From an uncultured virus (IMG/VR IMGVR_UViG_3300025174_000006) (taxonomy: Duplodnaviria; Heunggongvirae; Uroviricota; Caudoviricetes), in IMG/VR virus record IMGVR_UViG_3300025174_000006: a stretch of 20,000 nt of DNA; one strand, 5' to 3'. Below, in pieces: positions 3,317 through 13,738 of this stretch. A program made the translations under genes and the position numbers. A model generated the notes under the pieces. That model was not told the origin of the DNA. It saw only the letters and a list, made by a program, of their open reading frames with translations, and searched no databases. The first letter of the stretch is position 1. Each line of letters opens with the position of its first letter.

Positions 3317-3898
3317 TTAGCTTTTAACAAAACCAACCTTAATATTATTATTAACAAACATAAAATAACAATTTTTTCCAGAATGTTTTAAACCGGTTGC
3401 TCTATAATTGAAAAACTTAGCATCTTTTCCTGAATAATTTTCAACATAAGAATTAGCTATTTCTTCGTTTTTCATATTAAATTCAAACTCTTGTCTTGAT
3501 ATCGCTTTAATATTATCTTTGTTTTTAAGGCACATAAAATATGCGTAATTTTTATCGTCATATGAAGAATATGACCTTACCATAAGAAGCTTTCCTGATA
3601 TATCTAATTCTTCCGGCCTGAAATAAAATTGCTCAAGATGTTTTTCACATTTTTCTAAAATACCTACCATCATAGTAAATACCTCTGGAAGCTCTATTTT
3701 TCTCTCTTTCCATAAATTTTCAATATTTATAACCATATTATACGCTTCGTCGTTCTGACTAATCCCATAAGCAAAATGAGGGTCAAATTTTAGAGATTTT
3801 TCAAAAGCATGTATTCTGAAAACGTCAATTCTTTTTTCGTTTGATACTATAATAGTTCGTATAAGATTTTCTTTCATTTCATTTAAATATGCATCCAT
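3317..3898 (-). CDS. Hypothetical protein
   Basis: 193-aa ORF with TAATTTTG element immediately upstream (3903-3910). Confidence 0.7.
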   Translation of the reverse strand: MDAYLNEMKENLIRTIIVSNEKRIDVFRIHAFEKSLKFDPHFAYGISQNDEAYNMVINIENLWKERKIELPEVFTMMVGILEKCEKHLEQFYFRPEELDISGKLLMVRSYSSYDDKNYAYFMCLKNKDNIKAISRQEFEFNMKNEEIANSYVENYSGKDAKFFNYRATGLKHSGKNCYFMFVNNNIKVGFVKS

Positions 3899-9660: not shown

Positions 9661-10116
9661 ATGAGAAACATCAGAAAAATGATAAGGAAAATTTTAACAG
9701 AAGAATTAAAACCCACTGTTGTGTACTCAGCTGTTGTTATTGAGAGATTTGAAGATATTGGGAAGTTGGATTTGATTTTTAGTAAGTACATCGAAAACGG
9801 TTGGAAAAAACCAACTCATTATCACATGACTATTGGACCGGGAAAATTTCCTGAGAGCTTGTATTTAAAAGGAGATTTAGACAAAGAAGTGACATTAGAA
9901 ATAACGTCTATTGGAATTTCAGAAAAAGCTATTGCACTTGGAGTTTCTGGATATTATTCAAGAAATGATAATCCACACATTACTATTGCTTTCAATAAAG
10001 AAAATGGAGGCAATCCGGAAGATAGCAAAGTGATTGAAAATTGGGGACATATTGATAATTTTTATGTAACCGGAATAATAAGAGAAGTTGGAGAAAATAA
10101 TTTAGTTATTAAATAA
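9661..10116 (+). CDS. 2H phosphoesterase-family protein
   Basis: Two HxT motifs (YHMTI, PHITI); N-terminal IRKMIRKILTEE helix. Confidence 0.75.
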   Translation: MRNIRKMIRKILTEELKPTVVYSAVVIERFEDIGKLDLIFSKYIENGWKKPTHYHMTIGPGKFPESLYLKGDLDKEVTLEITSIGISEKAIALGVSGYYSRNDNPHITIAFNKENGGNPEDSKVIENWGHIDNFYVTGIIREVGENNLVIK

Positions 10117-10120
10117 TTAG

Positions 10121-10199
10121 TACCTTCAATAGGATTCGAACCTACATTTTCAGCTCCGTTACACTTATTGAGTCCGTAGCTCAATGTGGCTATAAAGGC
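10121..10199 (-). tRNA. Atypical tRNA-Arg(ACG)-like RNA lacking a normal D-arm
   Basis: Acceptor GCCTTTA/TGAAGGT, anticodon arm ATTGAG-CTACGGA-CTCAAT, canonical T-arm GTAGG-TTCGAAT-CCTAT. Only 7 nt separate the acceptor and anticodon stems. Confidence 0.7.
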
Positions 10200-10200
10200 A

Positions 10201-10887
10201 TTATATTAATTCATATCGTTTTGCCCACTTTCTCACCGCAACATCACTAACTCCAAATTTTCTACCAAGTGCACAATATGAATTATTTTCTATCATTTCT
10301 TTTAATTCTTCTTTAGAGGGTCTGTTTTTTACTTTTCTAAAATTTAATCTAGGTACATATTTTCTCGTTGTTTTTTTATTTGTTTTATTTTTTTTTGCAT
10401 TTTTTCTGTCTACGCCAATTTTACCACGGCAATGAGTTTCTAATGTGAAATTGCAGTTTGGACATAAAAATCTTAAGTTTTCTAATCTATTATCATTATT
10501 TATTCCGTTTTCGTGGTCAATAATTAAACTAATTTTTTTACCTCTCCATATTTCTCCTTGTCCACATTCTTTACATTCATATTCTATCATGTTATTATCT
10601 CGTATTCTTTTTTTTAAACAAGCCCTTGCAACAGAACTGTTTTCACAAAAAATTTCTTCATCACTTTTCCTTAATAATCTGTCTTCATTAAACATTTTTT
10701 TAGCAAAATCACTACGGTTTAAAAAATGAGAAGTATCTATTGACCATTTATTTAAATTTGTTTTAAGTATTTTATAAGATGAAGAAGAATCGCTTCTTCC
10801 AGATTTTACTATAACATCTCTAAATGTGATGCTTTCAGATACTAATTTTTGTAATTCTTCTTTTGTATATTCTTTATGTTCTTTCAT
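10201..10887 (-). CDS. HNH homing-type endonuclease with C-terminal HTH
   Basis: CKEC...IDHENGINNDNRLENLRFLCPNC and LGRKFGVSDVAVRKW; lies inside the tRNA array. Confidence 0.85.
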   Translation of the reverse strand: MKEHKEYTKEELQKLVSESITFRDVIVKSGRSDSSSSYKILKTNLNKWSIDTSHFLNRSDFAKKMFNEDRLLRKSDEEIFCENSSVARACLKKRIRDNNMIEYECKECGQGEIWRGKKISLIIDHENGINNDNRLENLRFLCPNCNFTLETHCRGKIGVDRKNAKKNKTNKKTTRKYVPRLNFRKVKNRPSKEELKEMIENNSYCALGRKFGVSDVAVRKWAKRYELI

Positions 10888-10944
10888 AATTCTAACTTAT
10901 TTTAATGTAAATAGGTTAGAATTTTTTAATAAAGTAAATAGTTG

Positions 10945-11020
10945 AGGATAAGAAGAGAATTAAACTCCTGTTAAATATGTTTTGCAGACATATCCCGATT
11001 TCAACATTGGGTACTTATCC
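10945..11020 (-). tRNA. tRNA-Cys(GCA), copy 2
   Basis: GGATAAG/CTTATCC acceptor, U73, ATATGT-CTGCAAA-ACATAT, T-loop TTTAATT. Confidence 0.85.
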
Positions 11021-11048
11021 TTGTAAAAATTAAAAAAGTAAATAGTTG

Positions 11049-11124
11049 AGGATAAGAAGAGAATTAAACTCCTGTTAAATATGTTTTGCAGACATATCCC
11101 GATTTCAACATTGGGTACTTATCC
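11049..11124 (-). tRNA. tRNA-Cys(GCA), copy 1
   Basis: Identical to copy 2. Confidence 0.85.
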
Positions 11125-12443: not shown

Positions 12444-13391
12444 TTATTCTAATAATAATTCATCAATTGTTAAAATTGAATTTAAATTATCTATTGTTTT
12501 TTTAAATATCATTTTAACATTAATGTTGTTTTGTTCTAATACTAAACTCATTTTTGTTTTATCTATTATTGAATAATATCCTTTAGTTTCTATGTATAAG
12601 TTAAAATTTGGCAAATAAAAATCTGGCACATACGTTTTTTCAACACCTTCTTTAATATATTGAATATATATTTTTCTAATCCACAATATTTTATTGTCAT
12701 TTAACCATTGCGACATTTTTAATTCATATTTTCCTCTTAAAGAATATTCTTCACCAATAATATTTTTTTGTTTATAAAATTTCACATGTTTAAAATTGTT
12801 ACTTATTTCATTTTCTTCTAACATCTTGGAGTGAGATTTGCTAATTTTCGATTTTTGTTCAGAAGAAAGTGGCTTTCCTAATTGGTGATGTATTCTCTTA
12901 CCAGTAGCATACATTTCTTTTTGTTGCTCAGATGCTTTATTTACCCTATTATCAGTTTCCTTTGTAAGTCCTCTTGACCATCCCATTTTTGATTTAGTCT
13001 CTGCATTACTGTATTTTTTATTTTTATATTCAACTCCATCCGGTGTATGCATTTGAAATATATGACCACATATACCAAGTTTGTGAAATATTAATTCGCA
13101 ATGAGGACATTTATATTTATCTACATCAACTTTCCAAGATTCATCTACTGTTATTTGTTTTTTATTAACTGTATTACATTTATTATAATGCCTTTCAAAA
13201 TTAGAAACAGAAATATTTTTATTACATTTATCACAACATTTTGTGTTTTTAGGTTTTCCAAGTAAAGAAATACTTAAATTTTTTAATCTTTCTTTTAACT
13301 TTGGATTAGATTCACAATTTACTATATGAGCACCAAATTGTTGTGGGATCTCAAACTCAAAAGACTCTTTGCAATGCGGACAAGTTTTCAT
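12444..13391 (-). CDS. Homing-type endonuclease (Zn fingers, NUMOD3-like segment, PD-(D/E)XK domain)
   Basis: Several CxxC...H motifs, GKPLSSEQKSKISKS and YVPDFYLPNFNLYIETKG. Confidence 0.8.
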   Translation of the reverse strand: MKTCPHCKESFEFEIPQQFGAHIVNCESNPKLKERLKNLSISLLGKPKNTKCCDKCNKNISVSNFERHYNKCNTVNKKQITVDESWKVDVDKYKCPHCELIFHKLGICGHIFQMHTPDGVEYKNKKYSNAETKSKMGWSRGLTKETDNRVNKASEQQKEMYATGKRIHHQLGKPLSSEQKSKISKSHSKMLEENEISNNFKHVKFYKQKNIIGEEYSLRGKYELKMSQWLNDNKILWIRKIYIQYIKEGVEKTYVPDFYLPNFNLYIETKGYYSIIDKTKMSLVLEQNNINVKMIFKKTIDNLNSILTIDELLLE

Positions 13392-13460: not shown

Positions 13461-13543
13461 TGGGAGTTGATGGAGACGAGCCACCCGAGTTTTAAAACAA
13501 CCGATTTACAGTCGGTCCCGCTACCCCTACGGAATAAACTCCC
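13461..13543 (-). tRNA. tRNA-Tyr(GTA)
   Basis: GGGAGTT/AACTCCC, ACCGA-CTGTAAA-TCGGT, long variable arm, T-loop CTCGTCT. Confidence 0.9.
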
Positions 13544-13555
13544 ATTTTAATGTTG

Positions 13556-13627
13556 CACAGACGGTTATAATCGAAATAACTACGTGTAGTTTTTGGAGAA
13601 CTCACCGACACCAAGCCTGTCGTCTGT
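13556..13627 (-). tRNA. tRNA-Trp(CCA) with atypical D-region
   Basis: ACAGACG/CGTCTGT, G73, anticodon loop CTCCAAA, T-arm GTTAT-TTCGATT-ATAAC; A8 instead of U8. Confidence 0.78.
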
Positions 13628-13666: not shown

Positions 13667-13738
13667 TAGCGAAAACTGGAATCGAACCAATGTAGACACA
13701 GCTTATGAGACTGGTGGGAAACCAACATCCTTTTCGCA
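13667..13738 (-). tRNA. tRNA(CAT), Met; 1:72 mismatch, possibly initiator-like
   Basis: TGCGAAA/TTTCGCT, anticodon loop CTCATAA, T-arm ATTGG-TTCGATT-CCAGT. Lacks the three GC anticodon-stem pairs of typical initiators. Confidence 0.75.

What the first reader, a model, noticed from the sequence alone, without database searches (positions are those of the whole stretch)
10121..10199. tRNA-Arg(ACG)-like RNA with the D-loop apparently moved 3' of the anticodon arm
Seen: GCCTTTA-TA-GC-CAC-ATTGAG-CTACGGA-CTCAAT-AA-GTG-TAACGGA-GCTG-AAAAT-T arm-TGAAGGT-A. There is no D-hairpin. CAC/GTG and (TA)GC/GC(TG) extend the anticodon helix, and a D-loop-like TAACGGA sits in the variable region. Established: G18-G19-A20 is typical of tRNA-Arg, and A20 is an ArgRS identity element. 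Inference: a topologically rewired tRNA or a tRNA decoy. The leader peptide has one CGC codon that this RNA could read.
Basis: partly seen in the sequence, partly recalled or inferred. Interest (0 to 1): 0.75.

Follow-up and report, generated by a model that had tools for sequence, protein, structure and literature searches.

The report
Rewired phage tRNA-Arg, new fold class
This 79-base gene in a large phage is a tRNA-Arg whose D-loop sits after the anticodon arm instead of before it, and it belongs to a widespread, phage-specific and so far unannotated class of arginine and isoleucine tRNAs with this altered fold.

Summary
Window 10121-10199 (- strand) has a perfect acceptor stem, T arm and anticodon arm (loop CTACGGA, anticodon ACG). 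It has no D hairpin, and a D-loop-like TAACGGA lies in the variable region.

It is not a one-off decay product. Motif scans of viral contigs and my structure filter gave 68 distinct sequences with the same plan. Features that were not used for selection co-vary:
- The R15'/Y48' pair is A..T in 56 and G..C in 12, with no exception.

Other support:
- Anticodons are Arg in 50, Ile in 17 and Trp in 1.
- Arg members carry A20' in 49 of 50; Ile members carry A73 in 17 of 17.
- CCA is encoded in 35 of 68.
- 68 of 79 members lie in same-strand tRNA clusters.
- All six cultured-phage records examined (hosts Pseudomonas, Vibrio, Xanthomonas, Mesorhizobium, Microbacterium) carry a member with no tRNA annotation.
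- Only 1 of 120 motif matches in prokaryote genomes is a member, against 67 of 118 in viral contigs.

Best reading: a functional, structurally rewired tRNA-Arg, and the only Arg tRNA detected in the near-identical 81%-complete record G001. Expression and charging are untested. Nine literature searches found no description.

The parts
10121..10199 (-). Whole rewired tRNA-Arg(ACG) gene, 79 nt including the discriminator. No CCA is encoded.
   Evidence: Family model R2 scores it 78.9 bits, but it is in the training set.
10193..10199 (-). Acceptor stem, 5' strand (RNA positions 1-7).
   Evidence: Pairs 7 of 7 with 10122-10128, including two G.U. The family columns co-vary, but acceptor pairing was a selection criterion.
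10191..10192 (-). U8 A9 connector.
   Evidence: TA in 66 of 68 family members. It was not a selection criterion in that scan.
10189..10190 (-). P1 5' strand (GC). Pairs with 10153-10154.
   Evidence: Type-A columns 10/51 are GC16 AU10 CG1 other4; columns 11/50 are CG20 UA5 AU2 UG1 other3.
10186..10188 (-). H helix 5' strand (CAC). It takes the place of D-stem positions 22-25 and pairs with 10162-10164.
   Evidence: Columns 12/40 CG 31/31; 13/39 GC20 AU6 CG5; 14/38 21/31 paired. RNAalifold predicts this helix on its own.
10167..10185 (-). Anticodon arm: 6-bp stem (10180-10185 with 10167-10172) and 7-nt loop 10173-10179. Anticodon ACG lies at 10175-10177.
   Evidence: The loop has U33, C35, G36 and G37.
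10165..10166 (-). AA bulge on the 3' strand between the anticodon stem and H.
   Evidence: The first A is nearly invariant (90% or more) in the type-A alignment.
10162..10164 (-). H helix 3' strand (GTG), equivalent to D-stem positions 10-12.
10155..10161 (-). D-loop-like bulge TAACGGA, read as U13' A14' A15' C16' G18' G19' A20'.
   Evidence: R15' co-varies with Y48' in 68 of 68. A20' is present in 49 of 50 Arg members.
10153..10154 (-). P1 3' strand (GC).
10146..10152 (-). A-rich linker TGAAAAT. Its last T (10146) is the Y48' partner of A15'.
   Evidence: TGAAAAY is present in 7 of the 12 members found without requiring it. The 15'/48' columns are AU27 GC4 in type A.
10129..10145 (-). T arm: 5-bp stem and loop TTCGAAT.
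10121..10128 (-). Acceptor stem 3' strand (10122-10128) and discriminator A (10121).
   Evidence: A or G at position 73 is the bacterial Arg identity state (PMC9976931).
10201..10887 (-). HNH endonuclease ORF directly upstream. Its stop codon lies 1 nt before the tRNA 5' end. It is context only, not part of the RNA.
   Evidence: phrog_10822 at 6.7e-43. Pfam HNH is below its cut-off.
9661..10116 (+). Convergent LigT-like (2H phosphoesterase-like) ORF that ends 4 nt from the tRNA 3' end. Context only.
   Evidence: Pfam LigT_PEase E 4.8e-4, below its cut-off. Relatives lie beside phage tRNA genes in 16 of 17 loci fetched.

Best explanation
The element is a genuine phage tRNA gene, tRNA-Arg with anticodon ACG, of a non-canonical but conserved fold class.

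What is rewired. In this class the segment that normally forms the 5' strand of the D stem plus the D loop (positions 10-21) lies 3' of the anticodon arm, in place of the variable loop. The nucleotides that follow U8-A9 act as the opposite D-stem strand and run straight into the anticodon stem.

Resulting plan:
- a normal acceptor/T-arm domain;
- one long helix made of P1 (2 bp), H (3 bp) and a 6-bp anticodon stem, with an A-rich 2-nt bulge;
- a D-loop-like U-A-R-Y-G-G-A bulge emerging from the 3' strand of that helix.

Inferred tertiary contacts. The bulge is inferred to dock on the T loop through G18'/G19' and to form the R15'-Y48' Levitt pair with the base before the T stem. The A-rich UGAAAA linker leads back to the T stem. 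Together these would restore an L shape.

Inferred life cycle. The RNA would be cut out of the minus-strand tRNA-cluster transcript and given CCA by the host enzyme. ArgRS would charge it, reading A20', C35, G36 and A73. TadA would probably deaminate A34 to inosine, and the tRNA would then read CGU, CGC and CGA.

Shown versus inferred. Shown here: the sequence anatomy; a large family with compensatory changes in P1, H and the 15'-48' pair; amino-acid-specific identity nucleotides; encoded CCA; tRNA-cluster context; and restriction to viral DNA. Inferred: the L shape, processing, charging, editing and decoding, and any selective reason for the rewiring.
For: 1. Family.
- 68 distinct sequences share the plan, after I dropped 10 of 78 rows that were canonical or other tRNAs.
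- 4 of 17 loci of related jumbo phages carry an Ile(TAT) version with an unrelated sequence.
- 67 of 118 motif matches in viral contigs are members: 63 by my scanner and 4 more by model R2.

2. Features not used for selection.
- The 15'/48' pair is A..T 56 and G..C 12, with 0 exceptions out of 68.
- Type A, n=31: P1 is 88.7% paired with 3-4 pair types per column. H columns 12/40 and 13/39 are paired in 31 of 31, the latter as GC20 AU6 CG5.
- Type B, n=41: H columns are CG32 UA7 GC2 and CG19 GC17 AU4 other1.
- Sliding the 3' partners by 1-3 columns drops pairing from 94.6% to 35-44%.
- RNAalifold independently returns acceptor, H plus anticodon helix, and T arm.

3. tRNA-ness.
- Anticodons are Arg 50, Ile 17, Trp 1.
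- The base after GG is A in 49 of 50 Arg members and U in 14 of 17 Ile members. The discriminator is A in 17 of 17 Ile members. U8-A9 is present in 66 of 68.
- These match the bacterial identity sets in PMC9976931.
- CCA follows the discriminator in 35 of 68 members.
- 68 of 79 members have a canonical tRNA within 1.5 kb, always on the same strand.

4. Role in tRNA sets.
- In G001 it is the only Arg tRNA detected.
- In Pseudomonas phage ventosus, a rewired TCT member sits beside a canonical ACG tRNA.

5. The window copy meets every family feature and is invariant in four independent assemblies while the neighbouring gene varies.
Against: - No expression, processing or charging data exist. No RNA run holds the stretch (see Tried and rejected).
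- Codon demand is low. In 19 window ORFs (4859 codons), CGT+CGC+CGA are 23 of 169 Arg codons and AGA is 121. Simple codon supplementation does not explain an ACG tRNA here.
- The window copy has G37. The other 14 ACG members seen have A37. Whether that affects A34 editing is unknown.
- The single-sequence fold is not better than shuffles.
- This phage's tRNA region also holds three degraded tRNA-like remnants, so decay does occur locally.
- Microbacterium phage Zooman has a canonical ACG tRNA 72 nt upstream of a rewired ACG one. That redundancy would also fit a non-decoding role.
- Acceptor, anticodon and T-stem pairing were my selection criteria, so their covariation is circular.
Confidence: 0.7

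Rival explanations
1. A conserved tRNA mimic that is not used for decoding. It could be a decoy or sponge that binds and titrates a host tRNA-directed nuclease, modification enzyme or sensor, or it could be charged but excluded from the ribosome.
For: - The core is deliberately non-canonical yet conserved.
- Microbacterium phage Zooman carries a canonical and a rewired ACG tRNA side by side.
- In 7 of 79 cases, ARAGORN calls a separate tRNA of the same anticodon (overlapping the member by less than 20 nt) in the same 3-kb locus.
- Codon demand for ACG in this phage is low.
- A LigT-like, possibly RNA-repair-related gene lies next door.
Against: - A decoy for an anticodon-loop nuclease would not need A20' to track Arg anticodons (49 of 50), U20' and A73 to track Ile anticodons, or an encoded CCA (35 of 68).
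- In G001 it is the only Arg tRNA detected, and in ventosus it supplies an anticodon (TCT) not seen among the canonical tRNAs of the 3-kb stretch examined.
- Five different Arg anticodons and two Ile anticodons are represented. This looks like a decoding repertoire.
Confidence: 0.2
2. A tRNA-shaped processing signal: a punctuation element that recruits RNase P or RNase Z to cut the transcript after the HNH gene, with no role of its own.
For: - The 5' end abuts the stop codon of the HNH ORF.
- In phage PA11, the member overlaps the annotated 3' end of an HNH gene.
Against: - Only 25 of 79 members have a same-strand ORF of 60 aa or more ending within -45 to +80 nt of the 5' end, while 68 of 79 lie among tRNAs.
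- Processing needs only the acceptor/T domain. It does not explain conserved anticodon loops, A20', the 15'-48' covariation or the Arg/Ile restriction.
Confidence: 0.05
3. A decayed tRNA pseudogene or an assembly or rearrangement artefact peculiar to this contig.
For: - ARAGORN does not call it.
- The Rfam score is low.
- The MFE is not significant.
- Other degraded tRNA-like pieces lie 3.3 kb away.
Against: - The same architecture recurs in 68 distinct sequences with compensatory changes.
- All stems of the window copy are perfect.
- The sequence is identical in G001 and in four independent assemblies.
- Six cultured phages of five host genera carry members.
Confidence: 0.03

Closest known systems
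Canonical bacterial or phage elongator tRNA-Arg(ACG/ICG), class I cloverleaf (Rfam RF00005)
   Same: - 7-bp acceptor stem, 5-bp T stem with a TTCGAAT loop, and an anticodon loop with U33.
- The nucleotides U8, A14, R15-Y48, G18-G19 and A20 are all present.
- It passes the Rfam gathering score.
- It lies in a tRNA cluster.
   Different: - There is no D hairpin between positions 9 and 26.
- The D-stem 5' strand and the D loop lie after the anticodon arm.
- The variable loop is replaced by that segment plus an A-rich linker.
- The D-like loop is a bulge on a continuous helix, not a hairpin loop.
- ARAGORN, and the annotators of the six cultured-phage records examined, miss it.
D-arm-lacking mitochondrial tRNAs, such as mammalian mt-tRNA-Ser(AGY) and nematode mt-tRNAs (review PMC7609411, passages read)
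   Same: No D hairpin, and an extended anticodon helix reaching towards the acceptor stem.
   Different: - As I recall, those replace the D arm by a short connector, lose the G18G19/T-loop contact and are flexible. The passages read state the missing D arm, the connector region and the flexibility, but not the lost contact.
- This class keeps a full D-loop sequence, a consensus T loop and the 15-48 pair, placed at a new point in the chain.
- The hosts here are phages of bacteria, not organelles.
Class II tRNAs (Leu, Ser, Tyr) with a long variable arm
   Same: Extra nucleotides (about 20) lie between the anticodon stem and the T stem. Rfam treats both as a variable-region insertion.
   Different: - Class II tRNAs keep a normal D arm, and their variable arm is a self-contained hairpin.
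- Here the insert pairs back to the 5' strand after A9 and carries the D-loop motif.
- Identities here are Arg and Ile.
Other natural non-canonical tRNAs: tRNA-Sec, tRNA-Pyl and allo-tRNAs with 8/4 or 9/3 acceptor/T branches (PMC5389517, abstract seen; PMC7609411)
   Same: Functional tRNAs can depart from the 7/5 cloverleaf, and they are found by mining metagenomes.
   Different: Those change helix lengths but keep the order D arm, anticodon arm, variable region, T arm. Here the order of the elements along the chain is changed.
Circularly permuted or split tRNA genes of some algae and archaea
   Same: The gene order of tRNA parts differs from the cloverleaf order.
   Different: Those are processed into a canonical mature tRNA. 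Here both acceptor strands are at the ends of the gene, and no processing could restore the canonical order, so the mature RNA itself must be rewired.

Membership tests
tRNA (Rfam RF00005, canonical cloverleaf) | 7-bp acceptor stem with a discriminator base | tested here: met
   7 of 7 pairs (two G.U), discriminator A.
tRNA (Rfam RF00005, canonical cloverleaf) | T arm: 5-bp stem and a 7-nt TTCRANN loop | tested here: met
   5 of 5 pairs, loop TTCGAAT.
tRNA (Rfam RF00005, canonical cloverleaf) | Anticodon arm: stem of at least 5 bp, 7-nt loop, U33 and purine 37 | tested here: met
   6-bp stem, loop CTACGGA.
tRNA (Rfam RF00005, canonical cloverleaf) | D-arm hairpin between positions 9 and 26 | tested here: not met
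   cmscan replaces 13 D-arm model positions by 3 nt. ARAGORN is silent. No hairpin can be drawn there.
tRNA (Rfam RF00005, canonical cloverleaf) | Variable region of 4-5 nt, or a self-paired long arm | tested here: not met
   21 nt lie between the anticodon stem and the T stem. They pair back to positions 10-14 and not with themselves.
tRNA (Rfam RF00005, canonical cloverleaf) | Score at or above the Rfam gathering threshold | tested here: met
   34.6 bits against 29.
tRNA (Rfam RF00005, canonical cloverleaf) | Aminoacylation and decoding on the ribosome | not testable with these tools
   Only indirect evidence: identity nucleotides, CCA and cluster context.
Phage 'D-segment-transposed' tRNA class (defined here) | U8-A9 followed directly by a strand that pairs with the 2-3 nt preceding a U-A-R-Y(Y)-G-G loop located 3' of the anticodon arm (helix H) | tested here: met
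   Window CAC/GTG. Family columns are paired in 31 of 31 and 31 of 31 (type A), and 41 of 41 and 40 of 41 (type B).
Phage 'D-segment-transposed' tRNA class (defined here) | Type A only: a 2-bp P1 between positions 10-11 and the two bases after G-G-A | tested here: met
   Window GC/GC. 88.7% of cells are paired, with GC, AU, CG and UA variants.
Phage 'D-segment-transposed' tRNA class (defined here) | R15' co-varies with the pyrimidine immediately before the T stem | tested here: met
   Window A..T. Family A..T 56 and G..C 12, with 0 exceptions.
Phage 'D-segment-transposed' tRNA class (defined here) | Arg or Ile anticodon with the matching identity nucleotides (A20' for Arg; U20' and A73 for Ile) | tested here: met
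   The window has ACG, A20', C35, G36 and A73. Family counts are; reference identity sets are.
Phage 'D-segment-transposed' tRNA class (defined here) | High score with the family covariance model, clearly above canonical tRNAs | tested here: inconclusive
   78.9 bits, but the window copy is in the training alignment. Untrained TAT-type members score 39.5-40.8 bits, against at most 31.6 for canonical tRNAs.
D-armless mitochondrial-type tRNA | D arm replaced by a short connector without the G18G19 motif, and a relaxed T loop | tested here: not met
   A full D-loop motif and a consensus T loop are present. The defining features are from recall; the passages read in PMC7609411 state the missing D arm and the connector region only.
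tRNA pseudogene | Unconstrained decay: broken stems and no conserved relatives | tested here: not met
   All stems are intact. There are 68 relatives with compensatory changes.

The most novel reading that the evidence does not exclude
Phages have evolved and widely exchanged a second viable topology for tRNA, one that the ribosome, EF-Tu, ArgRS and IleRS still accept. In it, nucleotides 10-21 are threaded behind the anticodon arm.

On this reading the fold is kept because the rewired core is invisible or resistant to host enzymes that attack or control canonical tRNAs, such as tRNA-directed defence nucleases, or modification or quality-control enzymes that read the D arm and variable pocket. 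The phage would then keep translating Arg and Ile codons when host tRNAs are disabled.
Probability: 0.25. Interest if true: 0.95.

Novelty: new variant of a known kind. Interest (0 to 1): 0.88.

Why it matters
The cloverleaf order (acceptor, D, anticodon, variable, T) is treated as universal outside organelles. The abstract of PMC11551756 (seen) states that all known bacterial tRNAs are canonical.

A conserved, phage-specific class that keeps the tertiary-contact nucleotides but changes the chain topology would matter in several ways:
- It would show that the L shape can be reached by a different threading.
- It would reveal tRNA genes missed in routine phage annotation. All six cultured-phage records examined lack a tRNA annotation at the site, and ARAGORN called 5 of 65 members.
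- It would change tRNA counts and codon-supply analyses for phages.
- It would offer natural scaffolds for orthogonal tRNA engineering.
- It would open a testable link to the current work on tRNA-targeting anti-phage defence.

Carriers include culturable Pseudomonas, Vibrio, Xanthomonas, Mesorhizobium and Microbacterium phages, so experiments are immediately possible.

Tried and rejected
- **Near-identity search of GenBank phages with 2.5 kb around the element:** no match. A distant search with the element itself found only T-arm-sized matches.
- **First viral scan, requiring the exact anticodon loop, D-like loop and T loop:** 0 hits. That pattern was too specific.
- **Single-sequence covariance model R1:** it ranked canonical tRNAs above true relatives and was abandoned.
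- **Single-sequence MFE fold:** not significant.
- **A naive definition of helix H, using one register for all members:** only 31 of 68 gave a full 3 bp, against 14.5 in swapped controls. Splitting the family into types A and B resolved this.
- **Homing-endonuclease linkage.** This was suggested by the HNH gene upstream here and in PA11.
  - Only 3 of the 25 immediately upstream ORFs, out of 79 members, are HNH or GIY-YIG.
  - The two HNH proteins share only the motif.
  - I rejected this as a general feature.
- **Promoter and terminator scan:** no better than shuffles, 11 against 9.0 +/- 2.9.
- **Expression:** no RNA holder was listed for the stretch.
- **LigT-like neighbour against PDB sequences:** nothing.
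- **Literature:** nine full-text searches and passages of the review PMC7609411 gave no description of such tRNAs. A tenth search was rejected for a term format. The library lacks most subscription journals, so prior description cannot be excluded.
- **Other readings considered and dropped:**
  - An intron: removing the inserted hairpin leaves no anticodon arm.
  - A class II tRNA: there is no D arm and no self-paired variable arm.
  - A permuted gene: both acceptor strands are terminal.
Full report
**Setting**

The window is AT-rich DNA, 22-37% G+C in 1-kb steps. It comes from a large phage. The nearest record held, G001, is a 212.6-kb viral contig estimated to be 81% complete, and it shares 94% of sampled words with the window.

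The minus strand carries a tRNA cluster. ARAGORN tRNAs, interspersed with endonuclease genes: an HNH ORF at 10201-10887 and an endonuclease-I-like ORF at 12444-13391.

The finding lies at the downstream end of this cluster. It sits 1 nt after the stop codon of the HNH ORF and 4 nt from the end of a convergent LigT-like ORF.

**The observation**

The coordinates of every segment are in the parts list.

- Acceptor stem: 7 of 7 paired.
- T arm: 5 of 5 paired, loop TTCGAAT.
- Anticodon arm: 6 bp, loop CTACGGA.
- Between A9 and the anticodon stem there are only five bases (GC, CAC), so no D hairpin is possible.
- After the anticodon stem come AA, GTG, TAACGGA, GC and TGAAAAT.

Rfam's tRNA model accepts the sequence at 34.6 bits, against a gathering score of 29. 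It does so by deleting the D arm and inserting 19 nt in the variable region. ARAGORN does not call it.

Folding energy alone says nothing: z is -1.67, and the MFE structure is not even tRNA-like.

The sequence is identical in G001 and in contigs of four runs from four different samples and studies. In those runs the neighbouring gene shows differences. It is therefore neither a misassembly nor a private mutation.

**A family with the same architecture**

*First relatives.* Loci fetched through the LigT-like neighbour come from related jumbo phages with their own tRNA clusters. Four of the 17 loci hold a 77-nt element that ARAGORN misses and Rfam scores at 31.6-31.7 bits for the three copies listed at gathering threshold (the L002 copy was not listed). 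Its sequence is unrelated and its anticodon is TAT, but its plan is the same. The plan is U8-A9, a short strand, the anticodon arm, an A-rich bulge, three G's pairing back to three C's, a TAGTYGGT loop, a short linker and the T arm.

*Two motif scans of viral contigs.* Neither scan specified the stems or the anticodon.
- The first required a consensus T loop close to a TAR..GG motif.
- The second required TAR..GG, TGAAAAY and GGTTC.

*Filtering.* My structural filter required the following: at least 6 of 7 acceptor pairs, at least 4 of 5 T-stem pairs, at least 4 of 5 anticodon-stem pairs starting 3-9 nt after the acceptor stem, U33, R37, 12-26 nt before the T stem, and at most two mismatches in all.
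- It returned 78 distinct sequences.
- I dropped 10 of them as canonical tRNAs misread by the filter or as other oddities. They are listed.
- 68 remained.

*Yield per scan.* Members occur in 9 of 121 loci of the first scan and 63 of 118 of the second. The family covariance model R2 found four more among the 55 remaining loci of the second scan, giving 67 of 118.

*Controls.*
- Shuffled copies of the sequence then held gave 0.1 filter hits per set.
- Only 1 of those 120 is a member. It lies in a 9-kb contig of a metagenome bin and scores 82.7 bits; all others score 19 bits or less.
- The class is therefore strongly enriched in viral DNA. Because the scans are truncated samples, absence from cells is not shown.

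**What co-varies**

Acceptor, anticodon-stem and T-stem pairing were selection criteria, so their covariation is circular. Three features were not selected for.

1. *The 15'/48' pair.* The purine two bases into the D-like loop (R15') and the base immediately 5' of the T stem (Y48') are A..T in 56 members and G..C in 12, with no mixed case. G..C occurs in Arg and Ile members and in both structural subtypes. This is the signature of the Levitt pair of canonical tRNAs, as I recall it.

2. *Helix H.*
   - In the 31 type-A members, which include the window and phages PA11 and D419, the three bases before U13' pair with positions 12-14. The counts are CG 31/31; GC20 AU6 CG5; and 21/31 paired.
   - In the 41 type-B members, the last two bases before U13' pair with positions 11-12. 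The counts are CG32 UA7 GC2, and CG19 GC17 AU4 with one unpaired.

3. *Helix P1, type A only.* Positions 10-11 pair with the two bases after G-G-A. The counts are GC16 AU10 CG1 other4, and CG20 UA5 AU2 UG1 other3.

Further checks:
- Sliding the partners by one to three columns drops pairing from 94.6% to 35-44%.
- RNAalifold, given only the alignment, returns the acceptor stem, H continuous with the anticodon stem, and the T arm.
- It does not draw P1, which rests on covariation only.

The window copy satisfies every one of these features: GC/GC, CAC/GTG, A-T as a sixth anticodon-stem pair, the AA bulge, A15'..T48' and TGAAAAT.

**Interpretation of the fold**

In cloverleaf numbering, the strand after U8-A9 behaves as positions 22-25, running directly into the anticodon stem as in any tRNA. 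The strand after the anticodon arm behaves as positions 10-13, followed by A14, R15, Y16/17, G18, G19 and N20.

The segment 10-21 has, in effect, been transposed from between positions 9 and 22 to between 43 and 48. An A-rich linker replaces the rest of the variable loop.

The nucleotides that make the tertiary core of a tRNA are all retained: U8, A14, R15-Y48, G18, G19 and the T-loop consensus. That they make the same contacts and rebuild an L shape is an inference from the 15'-48' covariation and from geometry. It has not been shown.

**Evidence that these are working tRNA genes**

*Anticodons.*

| Amino acid | Anticodons | Total |
|---|---|---|
| Arg | TCT 25, ACG 11, TCG 9, CCT 4, GCG 1 | 50 |
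| Ile | GAT 9, TAT 8 | 17 |
| Trp | CCA 1 | 1 |

*Identity nucleotides.*
- The base after G18'G19' is A in 49 of 50 Arg members and U in 14 of 17 Ile members.
- The discriminator is A in 17 of 17 Ile members. In Arg members it is G in 19, A in 16, U in 14 and C in 1.
- The identity review PMC9976931 (Table 1 and the arginine section, read) lists A20, C35, U/G36 and A/G73 (also U73) for bacterial Arg. It lists A73 and U20, among others, for bacterial Ile.
- The transposed loop thus carries the identity nucleotide appropriate to the anticodon. A pseudogene, or a decoy for an anticodon nuclease, would not need this.

*CCA and context.*
- CCA follows the discriminator in 35 of 68 members; about 1 would be expected by chance.
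- With 1.5-kb flanks, 68 of 79 members have at least one ARAGORN tRNA in the locus, always on the same strand.

*Cultured phages.* BLAST against GenBank phage records found members in the following, all confirmed by the filter and all with an encoded CCA.

| Phage | Anticodon | Context |
|---|---|---|
| Pseudomonas phage PA11 (TC6, PSA11, FBPa8 and PP21 matched by BLAST only, not examined) | TCT | overlaps the annotated 3' end of an HNH gene |
| Pseudomonas phage ventosus (UAVern and Bitten matched by BLAST only, not examined) | TCT | inside a tRNA cluster |
| Vibrio phage D419 (285 further Vibrio phage records matched by BLAST only) | ACG | inside a tRNA cluster |
| Mesorhizobium phage Cp1R7A-A1 | ACG | inside a tRNA cluster |
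| Xanthomonas phage XacN1 | ACG | between predicted ORFs |
| Microbacterium phage Zooman | ACG | between annotated tRNA-Arg genes |

In none of the six records examined is the site annotated as a tRNA. ARAGORN overlapped 5 of 65 members, with wrong boundaries or the wrong anticodon.

**Role in this phage**

G001 has one member only, this element: 78.9 bits with R2, and the next hit scores 21.3 bits.

The canonical tRNAs seen in G001 are Cys x2, Thr, Ala, Asp, Ile, Pro, Gly x2, Val, Met, Lys x3, His, Asn and Phe x3. None is for Arg. Within the 81% of the genome held, the rewired gene is therefore the phage's only Arg tRNA.

Codon use argues against simple supplementation. In 19 ORFs, CGT is 12, CGC 0, CGA 11, CGG 1, AGA 121 and AGG 24. 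The window copy is also the only one of the 15 ACG members seen with G37 instead of A37. What that means for A34-to-I editing is unknown.

**Why rewired?**

This is unresolved.

A link to homing endonucleases was tested and dropped. Only 3 of 25 immediately upstream ORFs, among 79 members, are HNH or GIY-YIG, and the two HNH proteins compared share only the motif.

Three ideas remain:
- Resistance or invisibility to host factors that read the canonical core, such as tRNA-directed defence nucleases or modification and quality-control enzymes.
- A decoy role.
- A viable alternative fold that arose once and spread among phages, switching between Arg and Ile anticodons.

Weak hints exist for the first. 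One is the LigT-like gene next door, whose relatives lie beside phage tRNA genes in 16 of 17 loci fetched. The other is the co-occurrence of canonical and rewired ACG tRNAs in Zooman.

**Novelty**

Nine full-text searches and two reviews gave no description of such tRNAs. Details are in Tried and rejected. The library lacks most subscription journals, and supplements were not consulted.

I therefore rate this a new structural variant of a known kind of molecule. It is very probably undescribed, and its biological function is still to be demonstrated.

Noticed in passing
window 13486-13541 (-): A 56-nt tRNA-like sequence with an acceptor stem, a D arm and an anticodon arm (anticodon GTA). The T arm is reduced to 4 nt. 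Rfam tRNA scores it 23.3 bits, below the cut-off. It is either a T-armless tRNA-like gene or a deletion remnant.
   Followed up: partly
window 13556-13627 (-) and 13667-13738 (-): Two more unannotated tRNA-like pieces lie between tRNA-Val and the endonuclease gene. The first has a perfect acceptor stem and T arm but no recognisable D or anticodon arm. The second is a weak tRNA with anticodon CAT at 25.4 bits.
   Followed up: partly
window 9661-10116 (+); L001-L017: The 151-aa ORF beside the element has a sub-threshold LigT/2H-phosphoesterase match. Relatives (39-46% identity) were found in 17 other viral loci, mostly from large contigs (94-282 kb); 16 of these loci hold tRNA genes. This may be an RNA-repair or cyclic-phosphodiesterase function linked to tRNAs. 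A PDB sequence search found nothing.
   Followed up: partly
L002 6844-6923, L003 6687-6766, L016 8121-8200: An 80-nt tRNA with anticodon CAT. In L002 and L003 a C opposite A at the first acceptor pair (initiator-like, by recall); L016 has A opposite A there. It has a normal D arm, but extra bases and a poorly paired stem before the T loop. Rfam scores it 36.7-38.5 bits.
   Followed up: no
L005, L006, L007, L009, L011, L012 at 3617-3685; L015, L016 at 3618-3686: A 69-nt tRNA-like element lies 5 nt after a tRNA-Met gene. It has an acceptor stem, a T arm and a 5-bp hairpin with a TTGG-containing loop next to the T arm, but no clear anticodon arm.
   Followed up: no
L062, L071, L093, L107, L122, L127 (viral contigs): A minimal tRNA-like element of about 55-60 nt. 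It has a 7-bp acceptor stem, a 3-bp hairpin carrying a TAACGGA or TAGCGGA loop, a TTGAA-type linker and a T arm. It has no anticodon arm at all, so it resembles the rewired class with the anticodon arm removed.
   Followed up: no
L097, L118, L133 (viral contigs): Other tRNA-like genes without a D arm, whose variable region forms its own hairpin. Anticodons are TGA, TAG and GTA. This is a different architecture from the class described here.
   Followed up: no
L387 450-747 (Microbacterium phage Zooman): A canonical tRNA-Arg(ACG), a rewired tRNA-Arg(ACG) that is unannotated, and a canonical tRNA-Arg(CCG) lie in tandem within 300 nt.
   Followed up: partly
L181 84-161 (-): The single family member with a non-Arg, non-Ile anticodon: CCA (Trp), with discriminator C.
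   Followed up: no
L260 (Vibrio phage D419): In the 3-kb stretch shown, the record's tRNA locus tags run from 0009 to 0011. No 0010 is listed, and the rewired ACG gene sits between those two features without a feature of its own.
   Followed up: no
window 10944-11020 and 11048-11124 (-): Two tandem tRNA-Cys(GCA) genes, both called by ARAGORN. Neither reaches the Rfam gathering score in the whole-window scan.
   Followed up: no
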